From Escherichia coli (GTDB lineage Bacteria; Pseudomonadota; Gammaproteobacteria; Enterobacterales; Enterobacteriaceae), in NCBI RefSeq assembly GCF_024298765.1, contig NZ_CP101210.1: a stretch of 64,000 nucleotides of DNA. The stretch is one strand, 5' to 3'. The position numbers and the translations under genes are program-made. The notes below the pieces were generated by a model that was given only the letters and a program-made list of their open reading frames with translations, searched no databases and had not been told where the DNA came from. Below are positions 27,103-41,863 of the stretch, one piece after another. Every line of letters begins with the position of its first letter. The stretch's first letter is position 1.

Positions 27103-27110
27103 GAATCACT

Positions 27111-27141
27111 GATCGTTATGTAAATATTTATATTACGATCG
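27111..27141. promoter_or_regulatory. 31-bp AT-rich imperfect palindrome upstream of the receptor gene (candidate Fur-type operator)
   Basis: gatcgttatgtaaatatttatattacgatcg has symmetric GATCGT.A / T.ACGATC arms around an AT core, 9 bp from the start codon. No match to the Fur consensus was verified. Confidence 0.25.
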
Positions 27142-27352
27142 GTGCATAGGCAAAATTATGATCCAGATCACACGTGAATGTAAGTTATTTACAAATTACG
27201 CTAACCTTCTGTCTCCGCTCTTTGCAGCATAAAAGTATGGCGGCGCGTTGTTGAAAGCAGGAGCGGCCGGGTTGTCAGAAAGCTGGTTTGGACGCAAGTA
27301 ATATATAACAACTCTGATTACCGCATACTGTCAGGACAGTATCTACTTGAGC

Positions 27353-27584: not shown

Positions 27585-28394
27585 ATGTCACTTCCTGTTC
27601 CTTTTGGTGCAATTGTTACAGTAGTGAAGAAATGCTGGTCTACTCTTACCCAGATAATGCTGATAAAAACTTATCAACTCTCACATGAGCGCTGGGCAGT
27701 GAGACACAGGCTAGGGGCGAGCTGGCATTCCTTAGGGAATTATTTGGAGTACAGTCTACGATTTGCTCAGTTGACAGATAAAGAACCTCGTTGTTCACGT
27801 ATTGCTTTCAGAAGCAAAGAGGAACGACTGCAACAAGTTGAACTTGTTTTTGAAGCCATTGGCAGTGGCTTACGCTACCAAGAAACACTATGCATTCATG
27901 ATGTAAATAACTCACCGATAATATTAACGCTTTCAAATATTCCTACACTTGATGTACTTATTCTAGATGATGGATTCGCATTTACGGTTGAACAGTACCA
28001 GTTAAAATATTGCACGATAAAATTAATGACTGGTGAAAGTATATCTATTGACAATTCGCCCAAATATTCGCTAATGCAAAACTGGTGTCTCAATGATACA
28101 TGGAAACGGCGTTGGGGTATCATCTGGAACTGTAATGCAATTGAATGTGCCCGAAGGCGTATTGCTGAATATTGGAAATGGGGCTTTTGTCTGCCGTTAG
28201 TGGGACGCCCCCCGTTATATTCACCATCGCGAAAAGGTATTCATCTGTTTGAAGCAAAACCGTTACGCTGGTTTATGACACGCCCATGGTGTCTGAATAT
28301 CCAGTTTTGGACGGCAATTTGGTCAGGACTGTTTATTCTCAGCGATGAGAATGTCTTGCAATGGCGCTGGAAAGAGCCACCACAACAAGACTAA
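27585..28394 (+). CDS. Hypothetical protein (Trp/Cys-rich C-terminal half)
   Basis: 269-aa ORF in AT-rich DNA, bounded by hairpin repeats R2 and R3. No family recognised. Confidence 0.5.
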   Translation: MSLPVPFGAIVTVVKKCWSTLTQIMLIKTYQLSHERWAVRHRLGASWHSLGNYLEYSLRFAQLTDKEPRCSRIAFRSKEERLQQVELVFEAIGSGLRYQETLCIHDVNNSPIILTLSNIPTLDVLILDDGFAFTVEQYQLKYCTIKLMTGESISIDNSPKYSLMQNWCLNDTWKRRWGIIWNCNAIECARRRIAEYWKWGFCLPLVGRPPLYSPSRKGIHLFEAKPLRWFMTRPWCLNIQFWTAIWSGLFILSDENVLQWRWKEPPQQD

Positions 28395-29476: not shown

Positions 29477-30079
29477 TTAGACTTCAATCGATTCAGAGAT
29501 CTCTAACGCATCATCGACTTCAATGCCCAGATAACGGACTGTGCTTTCCAGTTTCTTATGGCCTAACAGAAGTTGGATCACCCTGAGATTCTTAGTTTTC
29601 TTGTAAATCAGGTAAGGTTTTGTTCTTCTCAAGGAATGTGTACTGTAAAGCGAATCTTCGAGACCAAGTTTTGCTACCCACCCATGAAAAATTCGGTTGT
29701 ATTGCCGGGTTGATATGTGTTGGTTAGTACCGACCCGAGATCGGAACAAATAGTCTTTACTGCGTAAATTGCCAAGCTTTATCAATGCAGAAACAGCTTC
29801 TCTTGTCCCTTTGGTTATCTCAAATTGGACAGGGCTGCCGGTTTTCTGTTGTAGAACCGTAGCTCTGCTTGAAACAGAGCTACCATATGCAACATCAGAT
29901 ACTTTGAGTTTGACTAGATCACAGCCTCGAAGCTTACTGTCCAAGGCCATGTTGAACAGAGCTAAATCGCGTGTTTTACCTTCCAGTTCAAGTCGGATTC
30001 GGATACCCCAGATATGAGATATCTGAAGTGGTCTTTTTTGGCCTATGATACGGTCTTTGTTCCACGGTGACGTGTTCAT
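29477..30079 (-). CDS. Small (200 aa) tyrosine recombinase / integrase-family protein
   Basis: Contains ...DSKLRGCDLVKLKVSDV...TGSPVQFEIT...YSTHSLRRTKPYLIYKKTKNLRVIQLLLGHKKLESTVRYLGIEVDD. The R...HxLR...GH...Y catalytic pattern is present. The ATG at 30079 sits 8 nt after an aggag, whereas the ORF track begins at a TTG at 30085. Confidence 0.8.
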   Translation of the reverse strand: MNTSPWNKDRIIGQKRPLQISHIWGIRIRLELEGKTRDLALFNMALDSKLRGCDLVKLKVSDVAYGSSVSSRATVLQQKTGSPVQFEITKGTREAVSALIKLGNLRSKDYLFRSRVGTNQHISTRQYNRIFHGWVAKLGLEDSLYSTHSLRRTKPYLIYKKTKNLRVIQLLLGHKKLESTVRYLGIEVDDALEISESIEV

Positions 30080-30080
30080 A

Positions 30081-30111
30081 CTCAAATCTCCTGCAATGTG
30101 GGAGATTTGAG
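30081..30111 (-). promoter_or_regulatory. Perfect 11-bp-stem hairpin covering the recombinase Shine-Dalgarno
   Basis: ctcaaatctcc-tgcaatgtg-ggagatttgag. On the coding strand the aggag SD is inside the 3' arm. Confidence 0.5.
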
Positions 30112-30118
30112 TATGGTT

Positions 30119-30143
30119 GTCCTTATGAGCGAGGCGCGGAAGC
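30119..30143. repeat. Hairpin repeat R5 (degenerate type B)
   Basis: gtccttatgagcgaggcgcggaagc resembles gtccgctgagagcgaggagcggaagt of R2. Confidence 0.45.
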
Positions 30144-30195
30144 TCACTTTAGGGCAATCTAATTCACATGTCAGAGGATTTATAAAAAGAGAATA

Positions 30196-30441
30196 GTGCA
30201 GATTTTAGGGATACTTACACTTGCTATGGCATACTTTTTGGGACCCCATCAGTTTAGGGATCTGAATCGCCACAGCTTTGGTAGGCACCTGCTTTATGGT
30301 CACGTGCACCCGAAGATCCTGCGGGTACGCATGGGTCACGAAAAGTACGAGTCTACAGAAGTTAATTTACGGTTTTTTGCGCTCGATGTGGCTGCCAGCT
30401 ACCAAGTCCAGTTTACACTGGATACAACTAACGCGCTGTAG
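30196..30441 (+). pseudogene. C-terminal remnant of a second tyrosine recombinase
   Basis: HQFRDLNRHSFGRHLLYGHVHPKILRVRMGHEKYESTEVNL resembles the H-x-x-R ... GH ... Y box of integrases, but it is degenerate and lacks the N-terminal domains. Confidence 0.45.
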
Positions 30442-30474
30442 CAACTGCGTGGTGGAAGCTGATTAAAGGAGATA

Positions 30475-31578
30475 ATGATGTTCGATGTTGACGATACTGC
30501 ACCCGATACTCCCGCCCCCCGTGAACTCAGTCAGGATGTGCAGGCGCTGATCAACAATGGTCTGGATTTTCTGGATAAAGCCCGTGAAGAGTTGGAGGCC
30601 TCGAAGCCGAAGTTCTCCGTCGTCAGTTTCTGGACTGCGGTCGAGATTTTACTGAAAGTTCCGCTGGCGCACGAACACTGGTCGTTGGTCTGCAGCCCGA
30701 AAAAGCCAATAAAAAAGCAGGCTTACCTAGCCGGTGATTTTCAGTCGGTGACCTACGAAGAAACCCGTGAAAGGCTTAAGGACGTACTTGAAAGACCCCT
30801 AGACAGAGAAACGGACAGTGCTTTTGATAAGGTCAGAAAGCACCGCAACCGCGTAGTTCATTTCTACCACCCCACTTTCACCGAGGCTGAACAACGTCAA
30901 ATACTCAAAGAACAAGCTGACGCCTGGTTTGCCCTGAACCGGTTATTAAGGGATGAATGGAAAGTTATCTTCGGTGTCAAACATAATTGGAAGCTGGCTT
31001 TCGGTGAAACTCGTCTGATTAGGGGAAACAAATTTTATGCCGAGGTGCGGTTTAAACAGGTTAAGCCTGAACTCGAGCAGCTCTCTGAAAAGAATATTCA
31101 AATCGGTAACTGCAATGAGTGCCATCAGCATGCGACGGTAACAGGGACTGAAACGACCGGTAATGAAAACCGTAAGCTTGAAGTTACGCGGTGTAAGGTT
31201 TGCACCAGTGCTGTAAGGCAAATTACCCTAGTTTGTCCAGACTGCGAAATACCTCAATTGCTACCTGAGGGAGATAGTGATTTTGAATGCGAACACTGCG
31301 ACTACACTTCGGATAGGTATAAACTGCTGGATGAGGAGTTGTTCCACAGTGTGGATGAACAGCTACTCTCCGTATTTCCTGCTGGATGTACCAATTGCAT
31401 GACTCCTGAAAGCGTATGTAAATTTGGAGACGGCTATCTTTGCACTCAGTGTTTCATCTATTACACCGAGCTTCATGTATGTGGTTGTTGCGGTCACCTG
31501 AGCGATAGCGTTCCTGAACTGAGCCATATCCGAGGATGTGAATTTTGTGATGGTGACCAACGTTATTTTGATGACTGA
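30475..31578 (+). CDS. HEPN-like (Rx4H) domain protein fused to an array of CxxC zinc ribbons
   Basis: 367 aa. The helical N-terminal half contains KVRKHRNRVVHFYH. The C-terminal half carries at least 12 Cys in CxxC pairs (CNECH, CKVC, CPDC, CEHC, CTNC, CTQC, CGCC, CEFC). A strong RBS aaaggag lies upstream. Confidence 0.6.
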   Translation: MMFDVDDTAPDTPAPRELSQDVQALINNGLDFLDKAREELEASKPKFSVVSFWTAVEILLKVPLAHEHWSLVCSPKKPIKKQAYLAGDFQSVTYEETRERLKDVLERPLDRETDSAFDKVRKHRNRVVHFYHPTFTEAEQRQILKEQADAWFALNRLLRDEWKVIFGVKHNWKLAFGETRLIRGNKFYAEVRFKQVKPELEQLSEKNIQIGNCNECHQHATVTGTETTGNENRKLEVTRCKVCTSAVRQITLVCPDCEIPQLLPEGDSDFECEHCDYTSDRYKLLDEELFHSVDEQLLSVFPAGCTNCMTPESVCKFGDGYLCTQCFIYYTELHVCGCCGHLSDSVPELSHIRGCEFCDGDQRYFDD

Positions 31579-31616
31579 ATTACCATACATAATCTAGGCT
31601 CTTCAGGGATGGGTTG

Positions 31617-31648
31617 GACAGTCCGCTCCTGGCACAGAGCGGACTGTC
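31617..31648. repeat. Hairpin repeat R6 (type A, best preserved)
   Basis: gacagtccgctc-ctggcaca-gagcggactgtc has a perfect 12-bp stem. It lies 39 bp after the stop of the HEPN-like gene. Confidence 0.75.
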
Positions 31649-31799
31649 AGATTAGATTCAGACCTGTACTCATTAGCTGATACAAATCAGCCACATATAC
31701 CTGCATTCCAAATAATTTCAGGCAGATATTATCTCCGTGAATCCCCCCGCCACCTTTCCGGTGCGCGGGGTTTTGTCTTTTTTCACCGGGAATACATGT

Positions 31800-32234
31800 A
31801 TGAATCCGTCTGATGCCATTGAGGCAATTGAAAAACCGCTCTCCTCCCTGCCTTACTCACTTTCCCGTCACATCCTGGAACATCTGCGCAAACTCACCAG
31901 CCACGAACCCGTGCCTGGCATTATGGGTAAAAGCGGGGCCGGTAAATCCTCACTCTGTAATGCACTGTTTCAGGGGGAGGTCACCCCGGTCAGTGCACTC
32001 ATGACAGCGCTTCCCGGACATGCCGCCATCCCTCTGATGACACGCCTGCAGGACGAACTGCGCACGGAGTCTGTCCGCACTCAGACCCGTGAACAGTTTA
32101 CCGGTGCGGTGGACCGGATATTTGACACGGCGGAGAGTGTCTGTGTTGCCTCTGTTGTCCGTACGGCCCTGCGCGCAGTTCGTGACACGGTGGTCTCTGT
32201 TGCCCGCGCGGTATGGAACTGGATTTTCTTCTGA
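31800..32234 (+). pseudogene. yeeP: YeeP/YkfA/YfjP-family GTPase with large internal in-frame deletion
   Basis: Translation reads MNPSDAIEAIEKPLSSLPYSLSRHILEHLRKLTSHEPV.GIMGKSGAGKSSLCNALFQGEVTPVS, joined directly to ALMTALPGHAAIPLMTRLQDELRTESVR...WNWIFF. The P-loop and C-terminus are kept and the G-domain core is missing. Confidence 0.8.
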
Positions 32235-32340
32235 ACCCGGTGGTGATGTACCAGGCTGTTGTTACAGATTTTTAACTCCATGAAAACACTATGCAAACGC
32301 AGCTATACCCGGGGTGTCCCCTTGCGTTGTGCTTCCCAAG

Positions 32341-32400
32341 TTAATAGAATACATCGATCGTTACTATCATATCGATCGTTATAAACGATCGTTTGTAGTA
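32341..32400 (+). promoter_or_regulatory. Triple-GATC repeat cluster upstream of the dynamin-like operon (candidate Dam-sensitive operator)
   Basis: ttaatagaatacatCGATCGTTActatcatatCGATCGTTAtaaaCGATCGTTtg. GATC sites are at 32356, 32374 and 32387, and the cluster ends ~62 nt before the ATG at 32452. Confidence 0.55.
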
Positions 32401-32451
32401 AATGACCTCCTCCGTGGTTGTCATGAAAATGCGTCTCAGGAAGGTTAAATA

Positions 32452-34848
32452 ATGCACGAAAAGAACATCGCCCTGCTTTGTGATGAAGCCGACCGACTTT
32501 TGCAACTGAACATTAATCTGCTCCGGCAAATGGTTGAGGAGCCAGATGTGTTATCTGACAGTAAGAACGAAAACAGACTGCTTTTTGATAAACAGAAAGC
32601 ACTGAAAAGAATTGAGGAGCTGGAGGGCGAACAAATCAAAACCGCCCGCAGGGAGATGGTGCTGGCTGTTGTCGGCACGATGAAAGCAGGCAAATCAACC
32701 ACCATCAACGCCATTGTGGGGCAGGAAATTCTGCCTAACCGTAACCGCCCCATGACCTCTGTACCGACGCTCATCCGCCACGTTCCCGGAAAAACTGAGC
32801 CGGTTCTCCATCTGGAACATATTCAGCCTGTCCGCAATTTATTAATCACACTGCAGGAAAAACTCGCCACCCCGGCAGGACAGCAGGTCGCACAGACCCT
32901 GCAGCAAACCGGGGATACCCGCGAACTGCTGGATATTCTGACGGATGATGGCTGGCTCAAAAATGAATACCACGGGGAGGAGGAAATCTTTACCGGACTG
33001 GCATCGTTAAACGATCTGGTTCGTCTTGCTGCGGCAATGGGGACTGAATTTCCTTTTGATGAATACGCAGAAGTGCAGAAACTGCCGGTGATCGACGTGG
33101 AATTCAGCCATCTGGTGGGGATGGATGCATGCCAGGGAACACTCACACTGCTGGATACCCCCGGCCCTAATGAGGCCGGACAACCGCAGATGGAAGTGAT
33201 GATGCGGGATCAACTGCAGAAAGCCTCTGCGGTTCTGGCTGTGATGGATTACACCCAGATGAACTCAAAAGCGGATGAAGACGTCCGTAAAGAGCTTAAT
33301 GCCATTGCTGACGTATCAGCCGGCCGCCTGTTTGTACTGGTCAATAAATTTGATGAGAAAGACCGCAATGGCGATGGGGCAGATGCCGTACGCCAGAAAG
33401 TTCCGGCAATGCTGAACAGCGATGTGCTGCCCGCCTCCCGCGTTTATCCCGGATCCTCACGCCAGGCATACCTGGCTAACCGTGCGCTTCATGAGTTACG
33501 GAAAAACGGAACCCTTCCTGTTGATGAAGCCTGGGTCGATGATTTTGTCAGGGAAGCCTTCGGTCGCATGAAAAAAGATTACGTCTGTAAAGACAGCGAA
33601 CTGGCAACTGAAGGGGCGACAGACCTGTGGGAAGGCTCACTTATCGATCAACTGATAACGGAAGTCATACTGAGTTCACACTCCAGAGCGGCGGCACTGG
33701 CGGTTGATTCTGCTGCCGCAAAACTGATGCAGAATGCAGAAAATGTCAGCGAATATCTGTCATTACGCCATCAGGGGCTGCAGCAAAGCATTCAGTCACT
33801 GCAGGCGAATATCACCAGCCTGCTTGCGGATATCCGGAAAATCGCGGACTGTCAGGAGCAGGTGACCGCTGATGTCAGAATGGCCATGGAGGAGATCGAT
33901 GCCAGAACCCGGGAATTACTGACGGGGGTCTGCACCTCACTGGAAGAGGAGCTGAATGACTATTTCAGAACTGGTAAACGCAAAGAACAGCAAATGTTGG
34001 AGGAAGAAGACGCAGAACAACGAAGGTCCCGGTCCGGATTATGGGGAAAGATTTCTCAATGGTCCGGTATCAACAACCCGGGCTGGGAAGATTACAGGAA
34101 ACGAGACTTTGACCCGGAAAACCCCGAGATAACACTAAATAATCGTAGGGAAGCAATTGAATATATAGAGGAAATTGAGTCAACTGTGACCAGCCTGCAC
34201 CGTGAGGCTGAAGCACAGTTCCGGCCTGAGCTGGAGAAAATCGTCAGCGGGATTGAAACAGGTTTTCGTGGCACGGCCCTGTACGCCACAGAAAACATTG
34301 CCGGTCGCATCAATGCCCGCCTGGAGGATGAGGGCTTTACCGTAAAAATCAGTTTTCCGGCAGTCAGTCAGTTACAGACCCGGCTCGCGGTAAAAACAAA
34401 TCTGAGTGCGCTTATGGAGGAAAGAACGGAGACCGTCACCCGTCGCCGTCGGCAGAGTGGCGTATGGGGAACCGTTTGTCGATGGTTTGGCACCAGTGAC
34501 CTGGGCTGGGAAAACTATGACGAGGATGTGAGTCGCAGCGTGATCAATATCAACAAGGTCAGAGAGGAAGTTATGTCACTGACCCGGGCATATTTCGGGG
34601 AGCTGCAGGCATCCATTGAGCAGGATATTAACCAGCCCGTCCGCCAGGAAATCGATGCCTTTTTCTGCGCATTCAGGGAGAAAGTTGAACAACTGCGTAA
34701 CACGCTGATTCAGAGCTCTGAAGATCATAAACGCGATCAGCAGGCACAGGAACGGCTTACCGGGAGACTTCAGGCATTAAATGAAAGGGTTCCTGAGCTC
34801 ATTACTGACAGTAAGGCGCTGAGGGAAGAGCTGGAGACAATGCTGTGA
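32452..34848 (+). CDS. Bacterial dynamin-like GTPase (YjdA/RdcA-, LeoA-, BDLP-type)
   Basis: 798 aa. G1 is VVGTMKAGKSTTINAIVG, G2 candidate is PMTSVPT, G3 is LLDTPGPNE, G4 is VLVNKFDEKD. The long helical stalk carries an internally duplicated SG.WG...W.G....GWE.Y segment. Confidence 0.85.
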   Translation: MHEKNIALLCDEADRLLQLNINLLRQMVEEPDVLSDSKNENRLLFDKQKALKRIEELEGEQIKTARREMVLAVVGTMKAGKSTTINAIVGQEILPNRNRPMTSVPTLIRHVPGKTEPVLHLEHIQPVRNLLITLQEKLATPAGQQVAQTLQQTGDTRELLDILTDDGWLKNEYHGEEEIFTGLASLNDLVRLAAAMGTEFPFDEYAEVQKLPVIDVEFSHLVGMDACQGTLTLLDTPGPNEAGQPQMEVMMRDQLQKASAVLAVMDYTQMNSKADEDVRKELNAIADVSAGRLFVLVNKFDEKDRNGDGADAVRQKVPAMLNSDVLPASRVYPGSSRQAYLANRALHELRKNGTLPVDEAWVDDFVREAFGRMKKDYVCKDSELATEGATDLWEGSLIDQLITEVILSSHSRAAALAVDSAAAKLMQNAENVSEYLSLRHQGLQQSIQSLQANITSLLADIRKIADCQEQVTADVRMAMEEIDARTRELLTGVCTSLEEELNDYFRTGKRKEQQMLEEEDAEQRRSRSGLWGKISQWSGINNPGWEDYRKRDFDPENPEITLNNRREAIEYIEEIESTVTSLHREAEAQFRPELEKIVSGIETGFRGTALYATENIAGRINARLEDEGFTVKISFPAVSQLQTRLAVKTNLSALMEERTETVTRRRRQSGVWGTVCRWFGTSDLGWENYDEDVSRSVININKVREEVMSLTRAYFGELQASIEQDINQPVRQEIDAFFCAFREKVEQLRNTLIQSSEDHKRDQQAQERLTGRLQALNERVPELITDSKALREELETML

Positions 34849-35750
34849 CTTCACCATTTATTCAACAAATTGCTGATAACCGGGTATGTCAGGTACTCAC
34901 CTGTCTTCCTGAAAAATTTGTGGTTGATTTCGCAAACGGAATCGATGTTGCACAGGAGCATATCCGCACGGCCAGAGAGCGCACGTTCTTCCGGCGTTTA
35001 AAAGAGGGACTGACCGGCGAAGGCGCTGCACGGCAGAATGCCATCAATGCTTCGCTTGCACAGGGCGTTGAGGCGTCCCTGCGCTGGCTGACGGAGCTGA
35101 CAACGTCACTTGCCACCACAAACTACGCGATTACCCGGGTAAACGACAGGGTCAGTTCACTGGTCAGTGATACTGCCAGGCTGGCGCATTATTCCGCAGA
35201 TACACGGGAGCAGTTACTCATCCTGGCCGATCAGGTTCACCATAAACTGAATCATCTTGAAGAAAAACTCCACCGTGTTGACCAGGTTCAGCGGGCGCAG
35301 TTACATCTTGAGCAGATATTCTCATGGTGGAGCGCCGGGCGATACGCGTCATTTTCCCCTGCCGGACGTTGTTATGTGGCACTTGAAGAGCTTCGCTGGG
35401 GCGCGTTTGGTGATGTGATACGTCAGGGCGAAACAGGCCAGGTTAACCAGCTACTGGATATTCTCAGACATAAAGCATTAACGCAGATGGCACAGGAGAG
35501 TGGCGGTAGTGCAACCGTGCGTCTGAACACTCTGGACTGGCTTGGTGGTCAGGGCCGGGAGCAGGCAGATAACGAGTGGCATGACGCGATTAACTGGCTG
35601 GGAGACTGGTGCAGTGAAGAGCAGCATCCGGTGATCTGGTCAACCACGCAGGCTGCAGAACACTTACCGGTTCGCATGCCTCGCCTCTGCTCTGCAGAAC
35701 GCCTCTCTGAAAGTATGGTCGATGAAATATTTCAGAAGGGGGCTGCATGA
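34845..35750 (+). CDS. RdcB (YjcZ)-like dynamin partner protein
   Basis: 301 aa, mostly helical. Its GTG start overlaps the dynamin stop (GTGA). The size and position match the yjdA-yjcZ (rdcA-rdcB) arrangement in K-12. The family call is from memory, not from alignment. Confidence 0.5.
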   Translation: MTSPFIQQIADNRVCQVLTCLPEKFVVDFANGIDVAQEHIRTARERTFFRRLKEGLTGEGAARQNAINASLAQGVEASLRWLTELTTSLATTNYAITRVNDRVSSLVSDTARLAHYSADTREQLLILADQVHHKLNHLEEKLHRVDQVQRAQLHLEQIFSWWSAGRYASFSPAGRCYVALEELRWGAFGDVIRQGETGQVNQLLDILRHKALTQMAQESGGSATVRLNTLDWLGGQGREQADNEWHDAINWLGDWCSEEQHPVIWSTTQAAEHLPVRMPRLCSAERLSESMVDEIFQKGAA

Positions 35751-36817
35751 GTACAGAAATGAAAACGGGGCTGGTGCTGTCCGGTGGCGGGGCGGTGGGC
35801 GCTTATCAGGCGGGAGTGGTTAAGGCACTGGCAGAGTGTGGTACACAGATCAGCATGGTTTCAGGGGCCAGCATTGGCGCATTCAATGGTGCCATTATCG
35901 CGGCCTCTCCCGATCTGTCAGAAGCTGCCGTACGCCTGGAGGCGCTCTGGGATCATCTGGGGAATAATCAGGTGCTGTCGGTAAACAGATTGGTTTACTT
36001 TTCATTGCTGAAAAAACTGCTCCCGGCCATGAACCTCTGCCAGCTCCCCGGACGTGCGGGCGCACTGCTTACGACGCTTCTTCACCATATATCGACAATC
36101 AACAGGTTTGACAATCTGATGACTCAGCCGTTGTTGTCAGATGGGCCCCTGACAGTGCTGATGGATCATTATCTTGATACTGATGATCTGGCTGACGGGC
36201 TACCGTTGTATGTGTCGCTGTACCCCACGGAAGGGGGAATGCAGGATATTATCGACTGCATTCGTGCTGAACTGGGTACCGGAACTACAAAAAACTCCGT
36301 TTTTCAGCATATCCAGAGCCTGCCCCACGGGCAGCAGAAAGAAGCCTTACTGGCGTCAGCAGCACTGCCCCTGCTGTTCCGTCCCCGTGAGGTACAGGGA
36401 AAAATGTACGGTGATGGTGGTATGGGCGGATGGCAAAATATGCAGGGGAATACCCCTGTGACGCCACTGGTGGATGCCGGATGCAATATGGTGATTGTGT
36501 CGCATCTGAGTGACGGTTCTTTATGGGATCGCCGGGCTTTTCCGGACACCACAATCCTTGAAATCCGTCCCCGGAAAAAGCTGAAACAAACAGGGGAAGA
36601 AGGCAAAAGTGGCGGTCTGCTCAGTTTTACATCGGCACATATCGACACCTGGCGTCAGCAGGGCTATGAAGACACGATGCTGGCGATGGAGCATATCCGG
36701 AAACCACTGGAGGCGCGTCAGGCACTGACCCGGTCAGAGGCGGTGTTGCAGAAAAGTCTGGAGAAAACGGAAGAGGCAGATTTGGCACTGAGAAACGCGA
36801 TGGCCCGGATTAAATAA
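35747..36817 (+). CDS. Patatin-like phospholipase
   Basis: 356 aa with the oxyanion motif LSGGGAVGAYQAG, nucleophile elbow GASIG and catalytic Asp motif YGDGGMGG. Its start overlaps the previous stop (ATGA). Confidence 0.85.
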   Translation: MSTEMKTGLVLSGGGAVGAYQAGVVKALAECGTQISMVSGASIGAFNGAIIAASPDLSEAAVRLEALWDHLGNNQVLSVNRLVYFSLLKKLLPAMNLCQLPGRAGALLTTLLHHISTINRFDNLMTQPLLSDGPLTVLMDHYLDTDDLADGLPLYVSLYPTEGGMQDIIDCIRAELGTGTTKNSVFQHIQSLPHGQQKEALLASAALPLLFRPREVQGKMYGDGGMGGWQNMQGNTPVTPLVDAGCNMVIVSHLSDGSLWDRRAFPDTTILEIRPRKKLKQTGEEGKSGGLLSFTSAHIDTWRQQGYEDTMLAMEHIRKPLEARQALTRSEAVLQKSLEKTEEADLALRNAMARIK

Positions 36818-36832
36818 AGACGCCCCAAAGAA

Positions 36833-36858
36833 ACGCCACCGCCTGTGGTGGTGTTTTT
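36833..36858 (+). terminator. Rho-independent terminator ending the three-gene operon
   Basis: acgccacc-gcctgt-ggtggtgt followed by tttt, 16 nt after the patatin stop. Confidence 0.6.
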
Positions 36859-36945: not shown

Positions 36946-37413
36946 ATGAGACTGTCAAATATTTTCCTGGCTGTAGTTTTAACTGTGACCGTATCTGTAG
37001 CACACGCTATTCCAAATATGTGGGGCAGTGGCTTCACGATGGGCGTTACTGAGTTCAGTATTGATAACGGTAAGTGGGGTATCAATATCAGTTGCACAGG
37101 TAACCCCAACGAAAACAATGTGCTGGCGCACACAATCTATATTTACAAAGGAGATAAGGTGGTCGCAAACTCGGAAGAAAAAAATATTAGTTTCGTTATT
37201 GACGGTGAAGAATTCTGGGGTGTGGTTCCTGACGGTACCCGTATGAACGATAACGCCTGGGTTAGCTTTGTAAAAGCAATAAGCACTGCAACCGGGTTTG
37301 AACTGTACATAAACGAGAAGAAAGTTGCGACGTTTAACCCGTCTGCCAAAAACGTTAAGAAAGTGATGGATAATAACTTTATCCAGTCGTGCTGGAATAC
37401 CTGGTACGAATAA
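36946..37413 (+). CDS. Small secreted hypothetical protein 1
   Basis: Signal peptide MRLSNIFLAVVLTVTVSVAHA and RBS ggggag. 155 aa from the ATG at 36946. AT-rich. Confidence 0.55.
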   Translation: MRLSNIFLAVVLTVTVSVAHAIPNMWGSGFTMGVTEFSIDNGKWGINISCTGNPNENNVLAHTIYIYKGDKVVANSEEKNISFVIDGEEFWGVVPDGTRMNDNAWVSFVKAISTATGFELYINEKKVATFNPSAKNVKKVMDNNFIQSCWNTWYE

Positions 37414-37468
37414 CGATTACAGGAGAGGGGGACTTCCTGGCCCCCGATTTATTTAAGGAGTGCATGAA

Positions 37469-38098
37469 ATGAAACATTTTTTAATTCTGGTTATCGGTTT
37501 ACTCATTTCCATCACCGCGACTGCCGAATCGCTGGGTCAGTTTGAAGAGGATATCACCGGTTTTCCGCAGGGAGTATGGTTTTACAAAGAAAAAGCAGGC
37601 TGGAAAAACGAAACCGGGTATAAAAAAGAATATTTAAACAGTCTCCTCTATAAGGCCGAAGAAATTGCGAATTATCCGGGTAACAGATACACGATTTACC
37701 GTAGTAAAAACAGCAGCATAATTTTCGTCGCTGACAACGAAACCAGGACTTTCTACTTGCTAAACAACAAGGACGCCTTATGGTCTGATATTCAGATCGG
37801 GTATTGGGCTGAGAACAAAAACTCGTGTCACTACGTCTTTGTCGATACTCAATACCTTGCGCAAAGTAACGAACTTGACGAGTTCTTTCGAACCGGGGTG
37901 CTCGATACTCATGGTGTTGGTGAATCGGATCGTAAAGTAAAAGAGATCAGACAAAAACATAAGACTCATGTCTTACTCCGCCTGCCTGCGCAATGTGTGA
38001 ATGATGCGATCCTCAGCAGAATGAATAAGTCCGAACGTCGTGATCTAATGAAAGCGCAAGAAGATTTCAAACAATATCTTGCCAGAATGGAGCTGTAA
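37469..38098 (+). CDS. Small secreted hypothetical protein 2
   Basis: Signal peptide MKHFLILVIGLLISITATA. An aaggag lies 8 nt upstream of the ATG at 37469. 209 aa. Confidence 0.55.
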   Translation: MKHFLILVIGLLISITATAESLGQFEEDITGFPQGVWFYKEKAGWKNETGYKKEYLNSLLYKAEEIANYPGNRYTIYRSKNSSIIFVADNETRTFYLLNNKDALWSDIQIGYWAENKNSCHYVFVDTQYLAQSNELDEFFRTGVLDTHGVGESDRKVKEIRQKHKTHVLLRLPAQCVNDAILSRMNKSERRDLMKAQEDFKQYLARMEL

Positions 38099-38128
38099 GT
38101 ATTCAACCTTTTCGCAACTGTGAGTGAA

Positions 38129-38377
38129 ATGAAAATCAAAACTATACTTTATACTATCATTCTTTTCTGTGAAATTGGCATCACCGACACTTATGCACTC
38201 GGTGGTTCGGATATCCGTCACTGCGAACCAACTGAAGAATCTGTAATTATTAACCCGGACGAGTCACCGGTGTTAATATATAGCTTCAGTAAACACGAAG
38301 TGTATAAACTGATGCAGGGGGATACCTGCACTGGGCTAGTTATTAGCGATAAAAAGCCAAAGCCTGTCCACGTTTAA
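38129..38377 (+). CDS. Small secreted hypothetical protein 3
   Basis: MKIKTILYTIILFCEIGITDTYA is signal-like. 82 aa. Confidence 0.4.
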   Translation: MKIKTILYTIILFCEIGITDTYALGGSDIRHCEPTEESVIINPDESPVLIYSFSKHEVYKLMQGDTCTGLVISDKKPKPVHV

Positions 38378-38532
38378 TGGACATCGCTTGCGAACCGCCA
38401 GAAGTCATGTCTGCCAGCATTCATCTACTGGCCGCGGATAATTATACGACCATGGATTTCTGCCATAACGCCGAATTAATCGGTCGTATTCCGTAAGCCG
38501 TGGTATCGAATAATTTAAGAAGGATTTTTATC

Positions 38533-38985
38533 ATGAAACACCGACACATTTTAACGTTCTTTGTTGCTTTCCTGTTCATGACTATCGTACCTGATAGCGA
38601 CGCCGCATTAGTAAAGCGTCCTGAGAAAGGTCGTGCACCGTTCCCGGAATATGTGGAGTTCGCGCAAAACCGTAACCAGTTCCCATGTAATGCACGTTTA
38701 CGCTTTAAAGGTCTCTGCTTTGTTGAACAAACTGACCCCTGGGGTGCAGCAAGCGTTGTCCGAATCCCTTTCAATTCCCCCAATGGTAAAGGCAGACTTA
38801 ACGCTTATGGCGTGGTTGTTCATGCAATAATGGTTGGTGATGTTGTCGTTGGTGGCAGCTATTCAACTGGCAAGAATGTTACCTGGAATTTCGATACGTT
38901 TTATAGGGAGGGTAAACGTCGCGGTAAGGTGACCTTTTATGTTGATGGTAAATACTGGCACTATCGCGACTATCCACTCGAATAA
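38533..38985 (+). CDS. Small secreted hypothetical protein 4
   Basis: Signal peptide MKHRHILTFFVAFLFMTIVPDSDA. 150 aa from the ATG at 38533. Confidence 0.5.
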   Translation: MKHRHILTFFVAFLFMTIVPDSDAALVKRPEKGRAPFPEYVEFAQNRNQFPCNARLRFKGLCFVEQTDPWGAASVVRIPFNSPNGKGRLNAYGVVVHAIMVGDVVVGGSYSTGKNVTWNFDTFYREGKRRGKVTFYVDGKYWHYRDYPLE

Positions 38986-39015
38986 TCCATAACGAACAAA
39001 ACTATTAAAGGAATT

Positions 39016-39096
39016 ATGCGTCTTATCTGCGCATTATTAAAATCAATAGTAAATTCGCTCCTGCCATTATGGCTGGGGCTTTTTATTTTCAGGTGA
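39016..39096 (+). CDS. Possible 26-aa hydrophobic peptide
   Basis: MRLICALLKSIVNSLLPLWLGLFIFR, with an aaagga RBS 5 nt upstream. It is below the ORF-track cutoff, and its only support is the RBS plus a TM-like sequence. Confidence 0.25.
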   Translation: MRLICALLKSIVNSLLPLWLGLFIFR

Positions 39097-39102
39097 AAAC
39101 AC

Positions 39103-39336
39103 ATGAGGGGCTGTACATTACTCTTATTTTCCGAAGCCCCTTTCTTACGCGAACAGGAGGTTGCTGTCATAACAGCTTACCGCAATGTGTTTATCCAGGA
39201 TGACCCGGGAATGCATTTCCGTTGGGTTATCCGCAACGCGGAAGGTCAGCGACGCTGGCGCTGCCGGAATTCTGAACCCGATGCCGGAAAGGTGCTTAAT
39301 ACGCGGCTCGCCAGTGACGGTCCTCTAAGACAATAA
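39103..39336 (+). CDS. DUF905-family protein (YkfF-like)
   Basis: 77 aa. ...[46 protein letters not shown] resembles K-12 YkfF. Confidence 0.65.
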
Positions 39337-39435
39337 ACGTCATTCATTTCACCCATCAGGCTGCGTCTTCTCCGGGAGACGTGGCTTTTTCATTTATTAC
39401 ACCAGTAAATCTTAACCACCGATAAGGAGCAAAGT

Positions 39436-40257
39436 ATGCGATTAGCCAGTTGTTTTGGTTATGCTGCGAACCAGATACGCCGTGACCGTCCACTGACACA
39501 TGAAGAGCTGATGCACCATGTGCCGGGGATTTTCGGGGAAGAGAAACACACGTCCCGAAGCCAGAACTATACGTACATCCCCACCATCACCGTACTGGAA
39601 AGCCTGCAGCGGGAAGGCTTTCAGCCATTCTTCGCCTGCCAGACCTGTGTGCGCGACCCGGGCCGCCGGGGATACACAAAACACATGCTGCGCCTGCGCC
39701 GTAACGGAGAGATAAACGGAGAACATGTCCCTGAAATTATTCTGCTCAACTCTCATGACGGTACCTCCAGCTACCAGATGCTGCCGGGTTACTTCAGGTT
39801 CGTCTGCCAGAACGGATGCGTCTGTGGTCAGTCTCTGGGGGAAGTGCGTGTTCCGCACCGGGGAAATGTGGTGGACAGAGTCATTGAAGGGGCTTACGAG
39901 GTGGTGGGCGTGTTTGACCGGATAGAGGAGATGCGTGATGCCATGCAGTCGCTGATTCTGCCGCCACCGGCACGCCAGGCGCTGGCACAGGCGGCACTGA
40001 CTTACCGTTATGGTGACGAACATCGGCCCGTCACCACCGCCGACATTCTGACGCCACGACGCCGGGAGGATTACGGTAAGGACCTGTGGAGTACTTATCA
40101 GACCATCCAGGAGAATATGCTGAAAGGCGGGATTTCCGGTCGCAGTGCAAAAGGAAAACGTATCCACACCCGTGCCATTCACAGCATCGACACCGATATT
40201 AAGCTCAACCGCGCATTGTGGGTAATGGCAGAAACGCTGCTGGAGAGCCAGCGCTGA
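39436..40257 (+). CDS. DUF932-family protein (YfjQ/YafZ-like)
   Basis: 273 aa with the conserved CP4-type island order and sequence (…ILLNSHDGTSSYQMLPGYFRFVCQNG…). Confidence 0.75.
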   Translation: MRLASCFGYAANQIRRDRPLTHEELMHHVPGIFGEEKHTSRSQNYTYIPTITVLESLQREGFQPFFACQTCVRDPGRRGYTKHMLRLRRNGEINGEHVPEIILLNSHDGTSSYQMLPGYFRFVCQNGCVCGQSLGEVRVPHRGNVVDRVIEGAYEVVGVFDRIEEMRDAMQSLILPPPARQALAQAALTYRYGDEHRPVTTADILTPRRREDYGKDLWSTYQTIQENMLKGGISGRSAKGKRIHTRAIHSIDTDIKLNRALWVMAETLLESQR

Positions 40258-40502
40258 TGCAGCATGTCCCTGAAGGCGTGATTCAGGCACCAGAATCACC
40301 CGACGCCCCGGAGGCGCTGCCGGGGTGTCGTTCCATTTCTGATGATGACCTGTGCGCCTGGTGTACCCGTCTGCTTTACCGTCCCGGAGAAATCAGTCTG
40401 TGCAGACTGAGTACAGGCAATGGCATCTGGCCATCCGTCTGTGACCGGAACGGTTACGCGTACGGCTGTCCGGAATTTCAGCCGAATATCATTCATCCCT
40501 GA
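40257..40502 (+). CDS. Small Cys-containing hypothetical protein
   Basis: 81 aa from an ATG that overlaps the preceding stop (TGATG). It contains several Cys (CAWC...C...C...C). Confidence 0.45.
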   Translation: MQHVPEGVIQAPESPDAPEALPGCRSISDDDLCAWCTRLLYRPGEISLCRLSTGNGIWPSVCDRNGYAYGCPEFQPNIIHP

Positions 40503-40595
40503 TATTACCGGGTCTCACGGTCAGTGATGAACGTGATGTTGCCAGCTCCCGACCTTTACTCCCTCTCATTTATTCACATTACAAGGATTTCATAC

Positions 40596-41069
40596 ATGAA
40601 AACATTGTCTCAGAACACCACCTCTTCGGCCTGTGCACCGGAGACTGGCCTGCAACAACTGGTTGCCACCATAGTCCCTGATGAACAGCGCATCAGCTTC
40701 TGGCCGCAGCATTTTGGCCTCATTCCACAGTGGGTGACCCTGGAGCCCCGTGTCTTCGGCTGGATGGACCGTCTGTGCGAAAACTACTGCGGTGGTATCT
40801 GGAATCTGTACACCCTGAACAACGGCGGGGCATTTATGGCCCCTGAACCGGATGACGATGATGACGAAACATGGGTACTGTTCAATGCCATGAACGGTAA
40901 CCGCGCTGAAATGAGCCCGGAAGCCGCCGGCATTGCCGCCTGTCTGATGACGTACAGTCATCACGCCTGCCGTACGGAGTGTTATGCCATGACGGTTCAT
41001 TATTACCGTCTGCGGGATTACGCCCTGCAGCATCCGGAATGCAGCGCCATTATGCGCATCATCGACTGA
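40596..41069 (+). CDS. Antirestriction protein (YfjX/YafX, ArdB/KlcA-like)
   Basis: 157 aa. MKTLSQNTTS...RISFWPQHFGLIPQWVTLEPRVFGWMDRLCENYCGGIWNLYTLNNGGAFMAP matches the K-12 paralogues as I remember them. Confidence 0.8.
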   Translation: MKTLSQNTTSSACAPETGLQQLVATIVPDEQRISFWPQHFGLIPQWVTLEPRVFGWMDRLCENYCGGIWNLYTLNNGGAFMAPEPDDDDDETWVLFNAMNGNRAEMSPEAAGIAACLMTYSHHACRTECYAMTVHYYRLRDYALQHPECSAIMRIID

Positions 41070-41084
41070 ATGGAGGCAGGGACA

Positions 41085-41561: not shown

Positions 41562-41623
41562 CCCGTCACAACCACATCACACCTGTTTTCACTTTTATCT
41601 TCTGTCTTCAGAGGTATCCCATT

Positions 41624-41845: not shown

Positions 41846-41863
41846 GTCAGTAAGGGCATTCTG

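What the first reader, a model, noticed from the sequence alone, without database searches (positions are those of the whole stretch)
32341..32451. Three clustered GATC sites in a thrice-repeated CGATCGTT motif upstream of the dynamin operon: possible Dam/OxyR-type phase switch captured from agn43
Seen: CGATCGTTA / CGATCGTTA / CGATCGTTT occur within 35 bp, with GATC at 32356, 32374 and 32387. They are preceded by ATAG (32344) and contain CTAT (32364), and the cluster ends ~62 nt before the operon ATG. Established knowledge: in K-12 the yeeP pseudogene is followed by flu (agn43). Its ON/OFF phase variation depends on three closely spaced GATC sites inside an OxyR operator, through competition between Dam and OxyR. 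Here a yeeP remnant lies immediately upstream (31800-32234), but the downstream gene is the dynamin-like GTPase rather than Ag43. Inference: the operon may have inherited the agn43 epigenetic switch. That would make a potentially toxic lipase system phase-variable, which is bet-hedging behaviour typical of costly defence systems.
Basis: partly seen in the sequence, partly recalled or inferred. Interest (0 to 1): 0.7.

Follow-up and report, generated by a model that had tools for sequence, protein, structure and literature searches.

The report
Ag43 epigenetic switch fused to dynamin operon
The three GATC sites are the promoter and OxyR operator of the E. coli antigen-43 on/off switch, and because the Ag43 gene is missing here they sit directly in front of a dynamin-like GTPase/YjcZ/patatin operon, an arrangement found in about a third of complete E. 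coli genomes and not described in the papers I could search.

Summary
GATC lies at 32356, 32374 and 32387 inside three CGATCGTT repeats, which are the only three copies of that 8-mer in the window.

The cluster is homologous to the agn43/cah promoter-operator. Local alignment to K-12 flu scores 48, against 17.6±2.3 for shuffles. It holds the window's best match to the 37-nt OxyR consensus (32353-32389, 16 of 20).

In O157 the gene order is yeeP, switch, leader, cah, 110-nt spacer, dynamin. Window 32235-32407 matches the region upstream of cah, and 32408-32451 matches the last 44 nt before dynamin. About 3.1 kb (Ag43 leader plus gene) is therefore absent, and the switch abuts the operon.

This fused form occurs in 1983 of 5426 complete E. 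coli genomes and in E. albertii. Across 39 haplotypes no GATC position varies, while 12 of the 33 other operator positions do (P=0.012).

The fused operator has 18/13 GATC spacing. All eight sampled Ag43-linked operators have 19/13.

Dam/OxyR phase variation of the operon is a well-founded prediction, but no methylation, OxyR-binding or expression data were available. I rate this a new member of a known kind, of moderate interest.

The parts
31800..32234 (+). yeeP-type GTPase gene remnant. It has an in-frame internal deletion of nt 189-626 of the 873-nt gene, and the mechanical ORF begins at GTG 31737.
   Evidence: ORF list. About 90% identity to K-12 yeeP over the 3' part. Block alignment to the full-length GTPase gene of strain MS7163. 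Weak P-loop Pfam hits.
32322..32327 (+). Predicted -35 hexamer TTGCGT, 17 nt upstream of the -10. It is the same hexamer as in cah-type promoters.
   Evidence: Position homologous to the agn43/cah promoter. Invariant in 39 haplotypes. Only 3 of 6 match consensus, so the simple promoter scanner did not call it.
32345..32350 (+). Predicted -10 hexamer TAGAAT. It is identical to that of K-12 flu and of all sampled cah/agn43 alleles, and lies 4 nt before CGATC-I.
   Evidence: One haplotype has TAGAGT.
32356..32356 (+). Predicted transcription start, the G of GATC-I, by homology.
   Evidence: The K-12 isrC/flu leader RNA is annotated as starting at the G of GATC-I (L002 5318), and the distance to the -10 is the same here. 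This is an inference and was not measured.
32353..32389 (+). Predicted OxyR operator, ATCGATCGTTACTAT-CATATCG-ATCGTTATAAACGAT. It matches ATAGnTnnnAnCTAT-N7-ATAGnTnnnAnCTAT at 16 of 20 positions. Half-site A is 32353-32367 and half-site B is 32375-32389.
   Evidence: Best-scoring site on both strands of the 64-kb window. The highest-scoring 37-mer found for K-12 flu scores 14/20 and for the cah types 13/20.
32356..32359 (.). GATC-I (Dam target).
   Evidence: Invariant in 39 haplotypes.
32374..32377 (.). GATC-II (Dam target), 18 nt after GATC-I.
32387..32390 (.). GATC-III (Dam target), 13 nt after GATC-II.
   Evidence: The 13-nt GATC pair within one OxyR half-site is also the layout in gtr.
32391..32407 (+). 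Stub of the Ag43-type leader (GTTTGTAGTAAATGACC), homologous to the sequence just after GATC-III upstream of cah. It ends at the fusion junction 32407/32408.
   Evidence: Alignments. Every fused copy inspected around the junction reads AATG(A/G)CC followed by TCCTCC.
32408..32451 (+). Native leader of the dynamin operon, with the Shine-Dalgarno sequence AGGAAGG at 32438-32444. It equals the last 44 nt of the cah-dynamin spacer in O157 TR01.
   Evidence: Least variable part of the intergenic region (3 of 44 columns variable).
32452..34848 (+). Dynamin-family GTPase, a full-length paralogue of RdcA/CrfC (34% identity).
   Evidence: Pfam Dynamin_N 3e-18. NCBIfam CrfC 567 bits, below the equivalog cut-off of 1146. 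BLASTP to K-12 RdcA 3e-122. dN/dS 0.18 against E. albertii.
34845..35750 (+). YjcZ/RdcB-family protein; its start overlaps the dynamin stop.
   Evidence: Pfam YjcZ 5.5e-71. RefSeq annotation in strain M8.
35747..36817 (+). Patatin-like phospholipase; its start overlaps the YjcZ stop.
   Evidence: Pfam Patatin 3.3e-25. Annotation.
36837..36853 (+). Terminator-like hairpin followed by a T-run, closing the three-gene operon.

Best explanation
Window 32322-32407 is a complete agn43/cah-type epigenetic switch. It consists of a sigma-70 promoter (TTGCGT-17 nt-TAGAAT, start near 32356) overlapped by one OxyR operator (32353-32389) that contains three Dam sites.

In an ancestral island the order was yeeP, switch, Ag43 leader, cah/agn43, spacer, dynamin-YjcZ-patatin. 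A single deletion of about 3.1 kb removed the leader, including its terminator hairpin, the Ag43 gene and 66 nt of spacer. The switch is now 44 nt from the dynamin Shine-Dalgarno/ATG region and is the operon's proximal promoter.

Predicted mechanism, by homology with agn43:
- When the three GATCs are unmethylated, an OxyR tetramer occupies the operator. It blocks both RNA polymerase and Dam, giving a heritable OFF state.
- When Dam methylates the sites after replication, OxyR cannot bind and the operon is transcribed, giving a heritable ON state.
- The result would be mixed ON/OFF populations for the dynamin-like GTPase, its YjcZ partner and the patatin lipase.

The fused operator is 1 bp shorter between GATC-I and GATC-II. 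It matches the OxyR consensus better than Ag43-linked operators do, so I infer tighter OxyR binding and an OFF-biased switch.

Shown here: homology, the junction, prevalence, conservation of the GATCs and promoter hexamers, and intact downstream genes. Inferred: OxyR binding, methylation sensitivity, the transcription start and bistability.
For: - **Homology.** MAFFT aligns TAATAGAATA...CGATC...CTAT..TATCGATCGTT.....CGATCG one-to-one with K-12 flu and with cah. Local alignment scores are 48 (K-12) and 64 (cah), against shuffle means of about 17.5, sd 2.2-2.3; 0 of 1000 shuffles reach them.
- **Junction.** Window 32235-32407 matches the region upstream of cah in O157 TR01, and 32408-32451 matches the last 44 nt before dynamin in the same locus.
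- **Gene order.** O157 loci have GTPase, cah, dynamin, RdcB-like, patatin.
- **OxyR site.** 16 of 20 consensus positions, the best in the 64-kb window.
- **Promoter.** -10 TAGAAT lies at the same distance from GATC-I as in flu and cah. The K-12 leader RNA isrC starts at the G of GATC-I.
- **Prevalence.** The fused 217-nt region is present in 1983 of 5426 complete E. coli genomes. It is also in E. albertii and in 77 further metagenome loci.
- **Constraint.** Among 39 distinct haplotypes, 0 of 12 GATC positions vary, against 12 of 33 other positions in 32351-32395 (P=0.012). The -35 is invariant, and the -10 varies in one haplotype. The most divergent alleles from complete genomes keep all three GATCs at 18/13.
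- **Operon intact.** 58 of 61 fused loci have all three ORFs full length. dN/dS is 0.18.
- **No bypass element.** No terminator or independent promoter is predicted between the switch and the ATG.
- **Precedent.** agn43-yeeR-irmA are co-transcribed and OxyR-repressed (PMC4807369). A lacZ placed after agn43 phase-varies (PMC3764049).
- **From memory, not read here.** Wallecha et al. 2002 (J Bacteriol 184:3338) reported the start at the G of GATC-I, an OxyR footprint from -16 to +42, and a 101-nt promoter-operator fragment sufficient for phase variation. The homologous span (about 32340-32397) is entirely retained here.
Against: - There is no experimental or methylome evidence for this locus. 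Nine literature searches found none that links the Ag43 switch to this operon (for example).
- The conservation signal is modest. It is P=0.05 against the whole intergenic region and P=0.012 within the operator. It is counted on related, possibly recombining sequences of low divergence.
- The -35 hexamer matches consensus at only 3 of 6 positions, and the generic scanner does not call this promoter.
- GATC-I sits one position further into half-site A than in K-12, because of the 18-nt spacing. Methylation sensitivity of OxyR binding could therefore differ.
- A stronger OxyR site could lock the operon OFF rather than allow switching.
- The direction of the event (deletion of Ag43 or insertion of Ag43) is inferred, not proven.
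Confidence: 0.6

Rival explanations
1. The module is OxyR-regulated but not phase-variable. It binds OxyR, but because the operator matches consensus better (16 of 20) and has altered spacing, it acts as a plain operator. The operon would be permanently repressed or cryptic, or would respond to OxyR redox state. The GATCs would be kept only because they are part of the OxyR half-site palindromes.
For: The fused operator matches the consensus better than proven switching operators do: 16/20 against 14/20 for K-12 flu and at most 13/20 for cah types. The 18/13 spacing was seen only in the fused form. The GATCs overlap the ATCG/CGAT arms of the half-sites, so constraint on OxyR binding alone would also conserve them.
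Against: The GATC-II/III pair sits in the same register as in agn43, with the methylatable adenines at consensus positions 1-2 and 14-15 of half-site B. OxyR consensus arms are ATAG/CTAT, so selection for OxyR binding alone would not favour ATCG/CGAT. All three proven OxyR/Dam switches use GATC pairs within half-sites.
Confidence: 0.22
2. The switch is an evolutionary relic. It was carried along when Ag43 was lost and no longer controls anything useful. The operon would be driven by read-through from yeeP or by another promoter, and the GATCs persist because the fusion is recent.
For: Divergence among fused copies is low: most are at least 95% identical, and 1335 of 1981 records have an identical 51-nt operator. 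The conservation test over the whole intergenic region is marginal (P=0.05). yeeP upstream is often a pseudogene.
Against: Substitutions accumulate in the spacers but not in the GATCs or the -35. The arrangement persists across phylogroups and in E. albertii, at dS 0.12, with all elements intact. No alternative promoter is predicted in the 44-nt leader. The downstream genes are under purifying selection.
Confidence: 0.12
3. The evolutionary direction is reversed. The arrangement yeeP, switch, dynamin operon would be ancestral, and the Ag43 leader plus gene was later inserted between the switch and the operon. Ag43 would then have captured the dynamin operon's switch, not the other way round.
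For: Either history produces the same two structures. The fused form is more frequent than cah followed by dynamin (1983 against 635 genomes).
Against: Ag43-linked regulatory regions are old and diverse. K-12 flu, cah types and the fused type are only about 75% alike or less, and Ag43-linked copies occur with several different downstream genes. All fused copies are closely related (at least 92% identity over the 51-nt operator), and those inspected share the same junction. No mobile-element ends flank the Ag43 segment.
Confidence: 0.12
4. The cluster is a chance grouping of GATC sites or a simple repeat with no regulatory meaning.
For: About 0.9 GATC triples within 35 nt are expected per 64 kb, and another one exists at 27137-27166.
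Against: Significant homology to a characterised operator. The best OxyR consensus match in the window. All three copies of CGATCGTT in the window are here. Invariance across haplotypes.
Confidence: 0.01

Closest known systems
agn43 (flu) / cah Dam-OxyR phase-variation switch of E. coli (K-12 CP4-44; O157 OI-43/48)
   Same: The DNA is homologous. The -10 TAGAAT lies at the same distance from GATC-I, and three GATCs lie inside one OxyR operator that overlaps the transcription start. GATC-II and GATC-III are 13 nt apart in the same half-site register. A yeeP-type GTPase gene sits immediately upstream.
   Different: There is no Ag43 gene, no roughly 200-nt leader, and no IsrC/leader terminator (Rfam search empty; hairpin present in L003). 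GATC-I to GATC-II spacing is 18 rather than 19 nt. Half-site A is a much better consensus match (8 of 10 against 6 of 10 in K-12, counted by hand). The controlled genes are cytoplasmic or membrane-associated (dynamin-like GTPase, YjcZ, patatin) rather than a surface adhesin.
agn43-yeeR-irmA operon of UPEC (Moriel et al. 2016, PMC4807369)
   Same: It shows that cargo genes downstream of agn43 are transcribed from the agn43 promoter and repressed by OxyR. The cah, dynamin, YjcZ, patatin arrangement in O157 is the analogous layout.
   Different: In UPEC the cargo rides behind Ag43. Here Ag43 is gone and the cargo is the first gene. The cargo proteins are unrelated: YeeR against dynamin gives E=0.26.
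gtr (phage P22 / Salmonella) and opvAB OxyR-Dam switches
   Same: They work through OxyR and Dam competition, with GATC pairs 13 nt apart embedded in an OxyR half-site.
   Different: Those systems have four GATCs and three or four half-sites, giving alternative activating and repressing OxyR positions upstream of the promoter. Here, from my reading of the flanking sequence, there is a single two-half-site operator over the start site. That is the repressor-only architecture of agn43. There is no sequence homology with gtr or opvAB.
RdcA/RdcB (YjdA/YjcZ), the dynamin-like GTPase system that activates diguanylate cyclase DgcE in K-12
   Same: The first two genes are full-length paralogues in the same order with overlapping stop and start. 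Dynamin is 34% identical to RdcA, E=3e-122. The YjcZ Pfam match is 5.5e-71. RdcA/RdcB function is taken from PMC6510439.
   Different: The NCBIfam score is below the equivalog threshold. A third gene, a patatin-like phospholipase, is present. The locus is on a horizontally acquired island next to tRNA-Asp rather than at the core rdcAB locus. The K-12 rdcAB operon is not known to me to be phase-variable.
Eleos / 'Dynamins' anti-phage system (LeoA, LeoBC)
   Same: It has a dynamin-family GTPase, and a weak PADLOC LeoBC hit was obtained.
   Different: E=1.6e-4 with no domain passing on its own. The YjcZ protein has no PADLOC hit. No evidence of a defence function was obtained.

Membership tests
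agn43-type Dam/OxyR phase-variation switch | Sequence homology to the agn43/cah promoter-operator region | tested here: met
   One-to-one alignment of the -10, the three GATCs and the half-sites. Local alignment score 48 against K-12 and 64 against cah, with shuffle means of about 17.5 and 0 of 1000 shuffles reaching them.
agn43-type Dam/OxyR phase-variation switch | Three GATC sites contained within a single OxyR binding site | tested here: met
   GATCs at 32356, 32374 and 32387 lie within or flush with the 37-nt site 32353-32389.
agn43-type Dam/OxyR phase-variation switch | GATC spacing of 19 and 13 nt, as in all sampled Ag43-linked operators | tested here: not met
   The fused type is always 18/13 (10 genomes, 76 metagenome copies, and 3 divergent genomes). 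Eight Ag43/cah-linked operators are all 19/13. The 13-nt pair is retained.
agn43-type Dam/OxyR phase-variation switch | Match to the OxyR consensus ATAGnTnnnAnCTAT-N7-ATAGnTnnnAnCTAT | tested here: met
   16 of 20, the top site in 64 kb on both strands. This is higher than K-12 flu at 14/20. It is a sequence criterion only.
agn43-type Dam/OxyR phase-variation switch | Sigma-70 promoter whose start lies at GATC-I, so that OxyR occludes it | tested here: inconclusive
   -10 TAGAAT and -35 TTGCGT lie at the homologous positions and are conserved. The K-12 leader RNA starts at the G of GATC-I. The generic scanner does not call the promoter, and no start-site data exist for this locus.
agn43-type Dam/OxyR phase-variation switch | OxyR binds unmethylated DNA and is excluded by Dam methylation | not testable with these tools
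   Needs a gel shift or footprint with OxyR(C199S) on methylated and unmethylated DNA.
agn43-type Dam/OxyR phase-variation switch | Heritable ON/OFF expression that is locked OFF in dam mutants and locked ON in oxyR mutants, with differential methylation of the GATCs | not testable with these tools
   No reads or methylomes were accessible. Nine literature searches found no data on this locus (for example).
agn43-type Dam/OxyR phase-variation switch | Controls an Ag43-family autotransporter through a leader of about 200 nt (IsrC region with terminator hairpin) | tested here: not met
   The next gene is a dynamin-family GTPase. There is no Rfam hit in 30000-34000. The leader hairpin present in L003 at 5313-5340 is absent here.
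gtr/opvAB-type OxyR-Dam switch | Three or more OxyR half-sites giving alternative binding positions, with four GATCs in two pairs | tested here: not met
   Only two half-sites and three GATCs are present. By my own reading, the flanking 15-mers 32331-32345 and 32397-32411 do not resemble a half-site. The gtr architecture is described.
RdcA/RdcB GTPase system | Dynamin-like GTPase followed by a YjcZ-family partner | tested here: met
   Pfam Dynamin_N and YjcZ. 34% identity to RdcA over the full length. This is a paralogue rather than an equivalog (567 bits against a cut-off of 1146).
Eleos/Dynamins anti-phage system | LeoA and LeoBC profile matches above threshold | tested here: not met
   Only LeoBC at E=1.6e-4 with no passing stretch, and no hit for the second protein.

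The most novel reading that the evidence does not exclude
Roughly a third of E. coli strains, including ST131, ATCC 25922, O157, O145, O121 and APEC lineages, as well as E. albertii, carry a previously unrecognised epigenetically bistable locus.

In this reading the Ag43 Dam/OxyR switch has been re-targeted and re-tuned. The 18/13 spacing and the near-consensus OxyR site were seen only in this fusion. The switch turns a dynamin-like GTPase/YjcZ/patatin module ON in a subpopulation.

Because the first two proteins are paralogues of the RdcA/RdcB activators of DgcE, this could place c-di-GMP/biofilm signalling or membrane remodelling under heritable ON/OFF control. It would also show that the Ag43 switch is a portable regulatory cassette for island cargo.
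Probability: 0.4. Interest if true: 0.7.

Novelty: new member of a known kind. Interest (0 to 1): 0.55.

Why it matters
The agn43 switch is the textbook Dam/OxyR epigenetic switch, and it has been treated as a property of Ag43 and of genes riding behind it. If the Ag43-less copy works, the commonest context of an agn43-type switch next to this operon is one without Ag43.

It would then control a dynamin-like GTPase/YjcZ/patatin module of unknown function in major pathogenic and reference lineages.

Three practical consequences follow:
- Clone-to-clone heterogeneity would explain silent or variable expression of this operon in omics data.
- There is a cheap genetic handle for studying it, since oxyR or dam mutants should lock it ON or OFF.
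- The natural comparison of 18/13 with 19/13 operators, plus the two-GATC deletion variant, offers a way to study how operator geometry sets switching bias.

Tried and rejected
- **Rfam, 30000-34000 at E≤1.** Nothing found, so there is no IsrC or other known RNA here.
- **RNA structure of the predicted leader.** MFE -25.7 kcal/mol, z=-1.3 against shuffles. There is no support for a structured-RNA explanation. The hairpin at 32373-32391 flagged as terminator-like is simply the palindromic half-site B.
- **YeeR as a remnant of the dynamin gene.** No similarity (E=0.26).
- **GTDB species representatives.** Only E. albertii was recovered, so there is little cross-species depth.
- **Pattern scan of viral contigs for the operator.** Of 15 hits, 14 are unrelated high-GC or coding sequence and 1 is an ordinary cah-type switch.
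- **Phage collection BLAST.** No match.
- **Plasmid collection BLAST.** Fourteen records, several of chromosome-like size (0.8-4.9 Mb). A 29-kb K. oxytoca 'plasmid' carries the same island fragment; I suspect, without checking, that it is a mis-binned E. coli contig.
- **PADLOC.** Only sub-threshold hits, so the defence-system reading is dropped.
- **Literature.** Nine searches found nothing that links the Ag43 switch to this operon. The ST131 and O111 methylome papers do not list unmethylated GATCs in their main text. Wallecha et al. 2002 (PMC135096) is not held, so its details are cited from memory. PMC7696260 mentions these gene names only as read-mapping noise.
- **GATC clustering as evidence.** Rejected on its own, because about 0.9 such triples are expected per window.
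Full report
**1. Observation**

- GATC lies at 32356, 32374 and 32387.
- Each GATC sits in CGATCGTT(A/A/T).
- ATAG is at 32344 and CTAT at 32364.
- The ATG of a 798-codon ORF is at 32452.

The repeat finder reports three copies of an 11-mer (ATCGATCGTTA, ATCGATCGTTA, AACGATCGTTT) spaced 18 and 13 nt apart. It also reports an 8-bp inverted repeat, CGATCGTT/AACGATCG.

GATC clustering alone is not significant. The window has 199 GATCs, about 0.87 triples within 35 nt are expected, and a second triple exists at 27137-27166. However, CGATCGTT occurs only three times in 64 kb, and all three copies are here.

**2. What it is: homology to the agn43 switch**

In K-12 MG1655 the order is yeeP pseudogene, isrC, flu. 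The three flu GATCs lie at L002 5318, 5337 and 5350.

MAFFT of the window against K-12 gives three zones:
- The yeeP 3' part is about 90% identical.
- About 100 nt after it are divergent.
- A block then aligns base for base: TAATAGAATA, then CGATC, CTAT, TATCGATCGTT, CGATCG. All three GATCs correspond. Downstream of this block, similarity ends.

A local alignment of the two intergenic regions, with the yeeP-proximal 16 nt removed, scores 48. Dinucleotide shuffles give 17.6±2.3, and 0 of 1000 reach the observed score. Against a cah allele the score is 64.

The 37-nt OxyR consensus is ATAGnTnnnAnCTAT-N7-ATAGnTnnnAnCTAT; the half-site form is quoted in PMC2909390. It matches 32353-32389 at 16 of 20 specified positions. 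That is the best site on either strand of the whole window; the next best scores 15. The highest-scoring 37-mer in K-12 flu reaches 14 of 20, and in cah-type operators 13 of 20.

**3. Where it came from**

A weak hit from the first BLAST (H40, 75% identity over query positions 1-165) led to E. coli O157:H7 TR01. There the order is GTPase (yeeP), cah, then a dynamin family protein.

Reading that locus gave the following:
- Window 32235-32407 aligns with the region from the yeeP stop to about +52 of the cah leader.
- Window 32408-32451 (TCCTCCGTGG...GGAAGGTTAAATA) differs at one position from the last 44 nt of the 110-nt cah-dynamin spacer.

The window is therefore the cah/agn43 arrangement minus L003 5176-8287. 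By my coordinate count that is about 3.1 kb. It comprises most of the leader, including its terminator-like hairpin at 5313-5340, the Ag43-family gene, and 66 nt of spacer. A short CCT(G/C)CG similarity is visible at the two break points (read).

O157 genomes can carry both forms. The unfused order GTPase, cah, dynamin, RdcB-like, patatin is seen in NE1127. A fused copy is seen in FRIK2533.

Every fused copy inspected around the junction has the same AATG(A/G)CC | TCCTCC junction. This argues for a single event.

Whether Ag43 was deleted or inserted cannot be proven here. I favour deletion for two reasons:
- Ag43-linked regulatory regions are deeply diverged and occur with several different downstream genes.
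- The fused copies form one tight group.

**4. Prevalence**

| Feature | Complete E. coli genomes (of 5426) |
|---|---|
| 217-nt fused region, at least 80% covered | 1983 |
| Dynamin 5' end | 2466 |
| cah-dynamin adjacency | 635 |

The fused form is present in ST131, ATCC 25922, the type strain ATCC 11775, SMS-3-5, O157, O145, O121 and APEC strains. It is also in E. albertii.

A 51-nt query covering the -10 and the operator finds 1980 genomes and 2196 places. This is essentially the same set as the fused region (1985 genomes, 2204 places). The 18/13 operator therefore appears only in the fusion, within BLAST sensitivity.

In this window the locus lies in an island next to tRNA-Asp.

**5. Is it maintained?**

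I collected fused copies without reference to the operator. Ten came from genomes, 77 from metagenome loci found through the dynamin protein, and three were divergent genome alleles.

Eighty-eight indel-free copies give 39 distinct 217-mers with 47 variable columns.

| Element | Variable positions | Test |
|---|---|---|
| Three GATCs | 0 of 12 | P=0.049 against the whole intergenic region |
| Non-GATC positions in 32351-32395 | 12 of 33 | P=0.012 for GATCs against this segment |
| -35 TTGCGT | 0 of 6 | invariant |
| -10 TAGAAT | 1 of 6 | one haplotype has TAGAGT |

Substitutions pile up in the -35/-10 spacer and between the GATCs. These counts are polymorphisms in related sequences rather than independent events, so the support is moderate.

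There are exceptions. An 18-bp deletion between the two ATCGATCGTTA repeats leaves two GATCs and removes half-site A. It occurs in metagenome locus L095 and in E. coli AF39. One copy has a 2-nt insertion after GATC-III.

The operon itself is maintained. In 58 of 61 fused loci all three ORFs are full length. Dynamin dN/dS against E. albertii is 0.18 at dS 0.12, and the intergenic region differs at 7.8% of positions.

**6. Differences from Ag43-linked switches**

All fused copies have GATC spacing 18/13. All eight sampled Ag43/cah-linked operators have 19/13.

The missing base, together with ACAT replacing AAAA before GATC-I, puts ATCG in register as the first arm of half-site A. By my count half-site A scores 8 of 10 here and 6 of 10 in K-12. 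The four arms ATCG, CTAT, ATCG and CGAT fall at 11-nt intervals (32353, 32364, 32375, 32386).

Half-site B, holding GATC-II and GATC-III, is in the same register as in agn43. The 13-nt GATC pair is the layout also reported for gtr half-sites.

I infer stronger OxyR binding and an OFF-biased switch. This is an inference only.

The Ag43 leader with its attenuator-like hairpin is gone. No Rfam family matches, and the remaining leader does not fold better than shuffles.

**7. Mechanism proposed**

The -10 TAGAAT lies 4 nt before CGATC-I, exactly as in flu and cah. The K-12 leader RNA isrC is annotated as starting at the G of GATC-I. By homology, transcription here starts at about 32356 and the OxyR site covers the start.

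From memory of Wallecha et al. 2002 (the paper is not held):
- The start is at that G.
- OxyR(C199S) protects -16 to +42.
- A 101-nt promoter-operator fragment suffices for phase variation.

The homologous span, about 32340-32397, lies entirely inside the retained part, since the junction is at about +52.

Genes behind agn43 are known to be co-transcribed and OxyR-repressed (agn43-yeeR-irmA, PMC4807369). A lacZ placed after agn43 phase-varies (PMC3764049).

No terminator or separate promoter is predicted between the switch and the ATG here, or between cah and dynamin in O157.

The most likely reading is therefore OxyR/Dam competition producing heritable ON and OFF states of the dynamin-YjcZ-patatin operon. 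OxyR binding, methylation sensitivity and bistability are untested.

**8. The cargo**

- The 798-aa protein has Dynamin_N (3e-18). It is 34% identical over its full length to K-12 RdcA/CrfC (3e-122), below the NCBIfam equivalog cut-off.
- The second protein belongs to the YjcZ/RdcB family (5.5e-71).
- The third is a patatin-like phospholipase (3.3e-25).

RdcA and RdcB activate the diguanylate cyclase DgcE (PMC6510439).

PADLOC gives only E=1.6e-4 hits to LeoBC and to a phospholipase effector. The 'defence system' label is not supported, and the function remains unknown.

**9. Known or new**

Nine full-text searches found nothing linking the Ag43 switch, OxyR or GATC methylation with this dynamin operon (for example). 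RefSeq leaves the region unannotated. The library searched is incomplete, so this is absence of evidence.

The mechanism is a known kind and the DNA is homologous to the type example. What is new is the cargo, the Ag43-less architecture, its prevalence and the 18/13 operator.

**10. Verdict**

The origin from the agn43 switch is shown. Phase variation is a strong but untested prediction, which I put at about 0.6. The defence and bet-hedging framing is unsupported.
- Novelty: a new member of a known kind. Interest: 0.55.

Noticed in passing
window 27103-27170: Four GATC sites (27111, 27137, 27160, 27166) lie within about 60 nt of the divergent intergenic region, immediately upstream of a minus-strand TonB-dependent receptor gene. 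A FecCD-type ABC uptake operon follows that gene. This may be another Dam-sensitive promoter.
   Followed up: partly
L095 (metagenome) and L116 (E. coli AF39, NZ_OZ547136.1), homologous to window 32353-32370: A natural 18-bp deletion between the two ATCGATCGTTA direct repeats removes one GATC and OxyR half-site A, leaving two GATCs 13 nt apart. AF39 also has the -10 changed to TAGAGT. These alleles may be naturally locked variants of the switch.
   Followed up: partly
L003 8288-8331 compared with L005 and L016 (the last 44 nt before dynamin): cah-linked dynamin operons come with two unrelated 44-nt leaders: TCCTCCGTGG..., the same as the fused type, and CTGTTCACCG.... The two diverge exactly at the position of the fusion junction, which suggests a recombination hotspot or a module boundary there.
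   Followed up: no
window 32406-32413 and 32438-32444: The leader sequence CCUCCUCC is predicted to pair with the Shine-Dalgarno sequence AGGAAGG of the dynamin gene. The overall fold is not better than shuffles (z=-1.3).
   Followed up: partly
window 31800-32234: The yeeP-type GTPase gene has an in-frame internal deletion of nt 189-626 of the 873-nt gene. In other genomes with the fused switch the gene is full length, frameshifted or truncated by ISEc12.
   Followed up: yes
window 27824-27898 (minus strand): ARAGORN calls a tRNA-Gly(GCC) inside the 269-aa ORF 27585-28394, which is annotated as a hypothetical protein in E. coli M8. The call is probably spurious.
   Followed up: no
L119 (K. oxytoca MSB1_10D 'plasmid 4', NZ_LR890315.1) and hit H91 (K. 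pneumoniae): The fused switch plus the dynamin-RdcB-patatin operon appears at 97-98% identity in Klebsiella records labelled as non-mobilizable plasmids. I suspect mis-binned E. coli DNA rather than real inter-genus transfer, but did not check.
   Followed up: partly
window 37400-48700: Downstream of the operon lies the usual conserved island arm: DUF905, DUF932, antirestriction protein, RadC/JAB, DUF987, the YeeU/CbtA toxin-antitoxin pair, DUF5983, IS66 and IS630 remnants, DUF957 and DUF4942. It ends at tRNA-Asp 48618-48694, next to dnaQ and rnhA, so the island is aspV-associated.
   Followed up: partly
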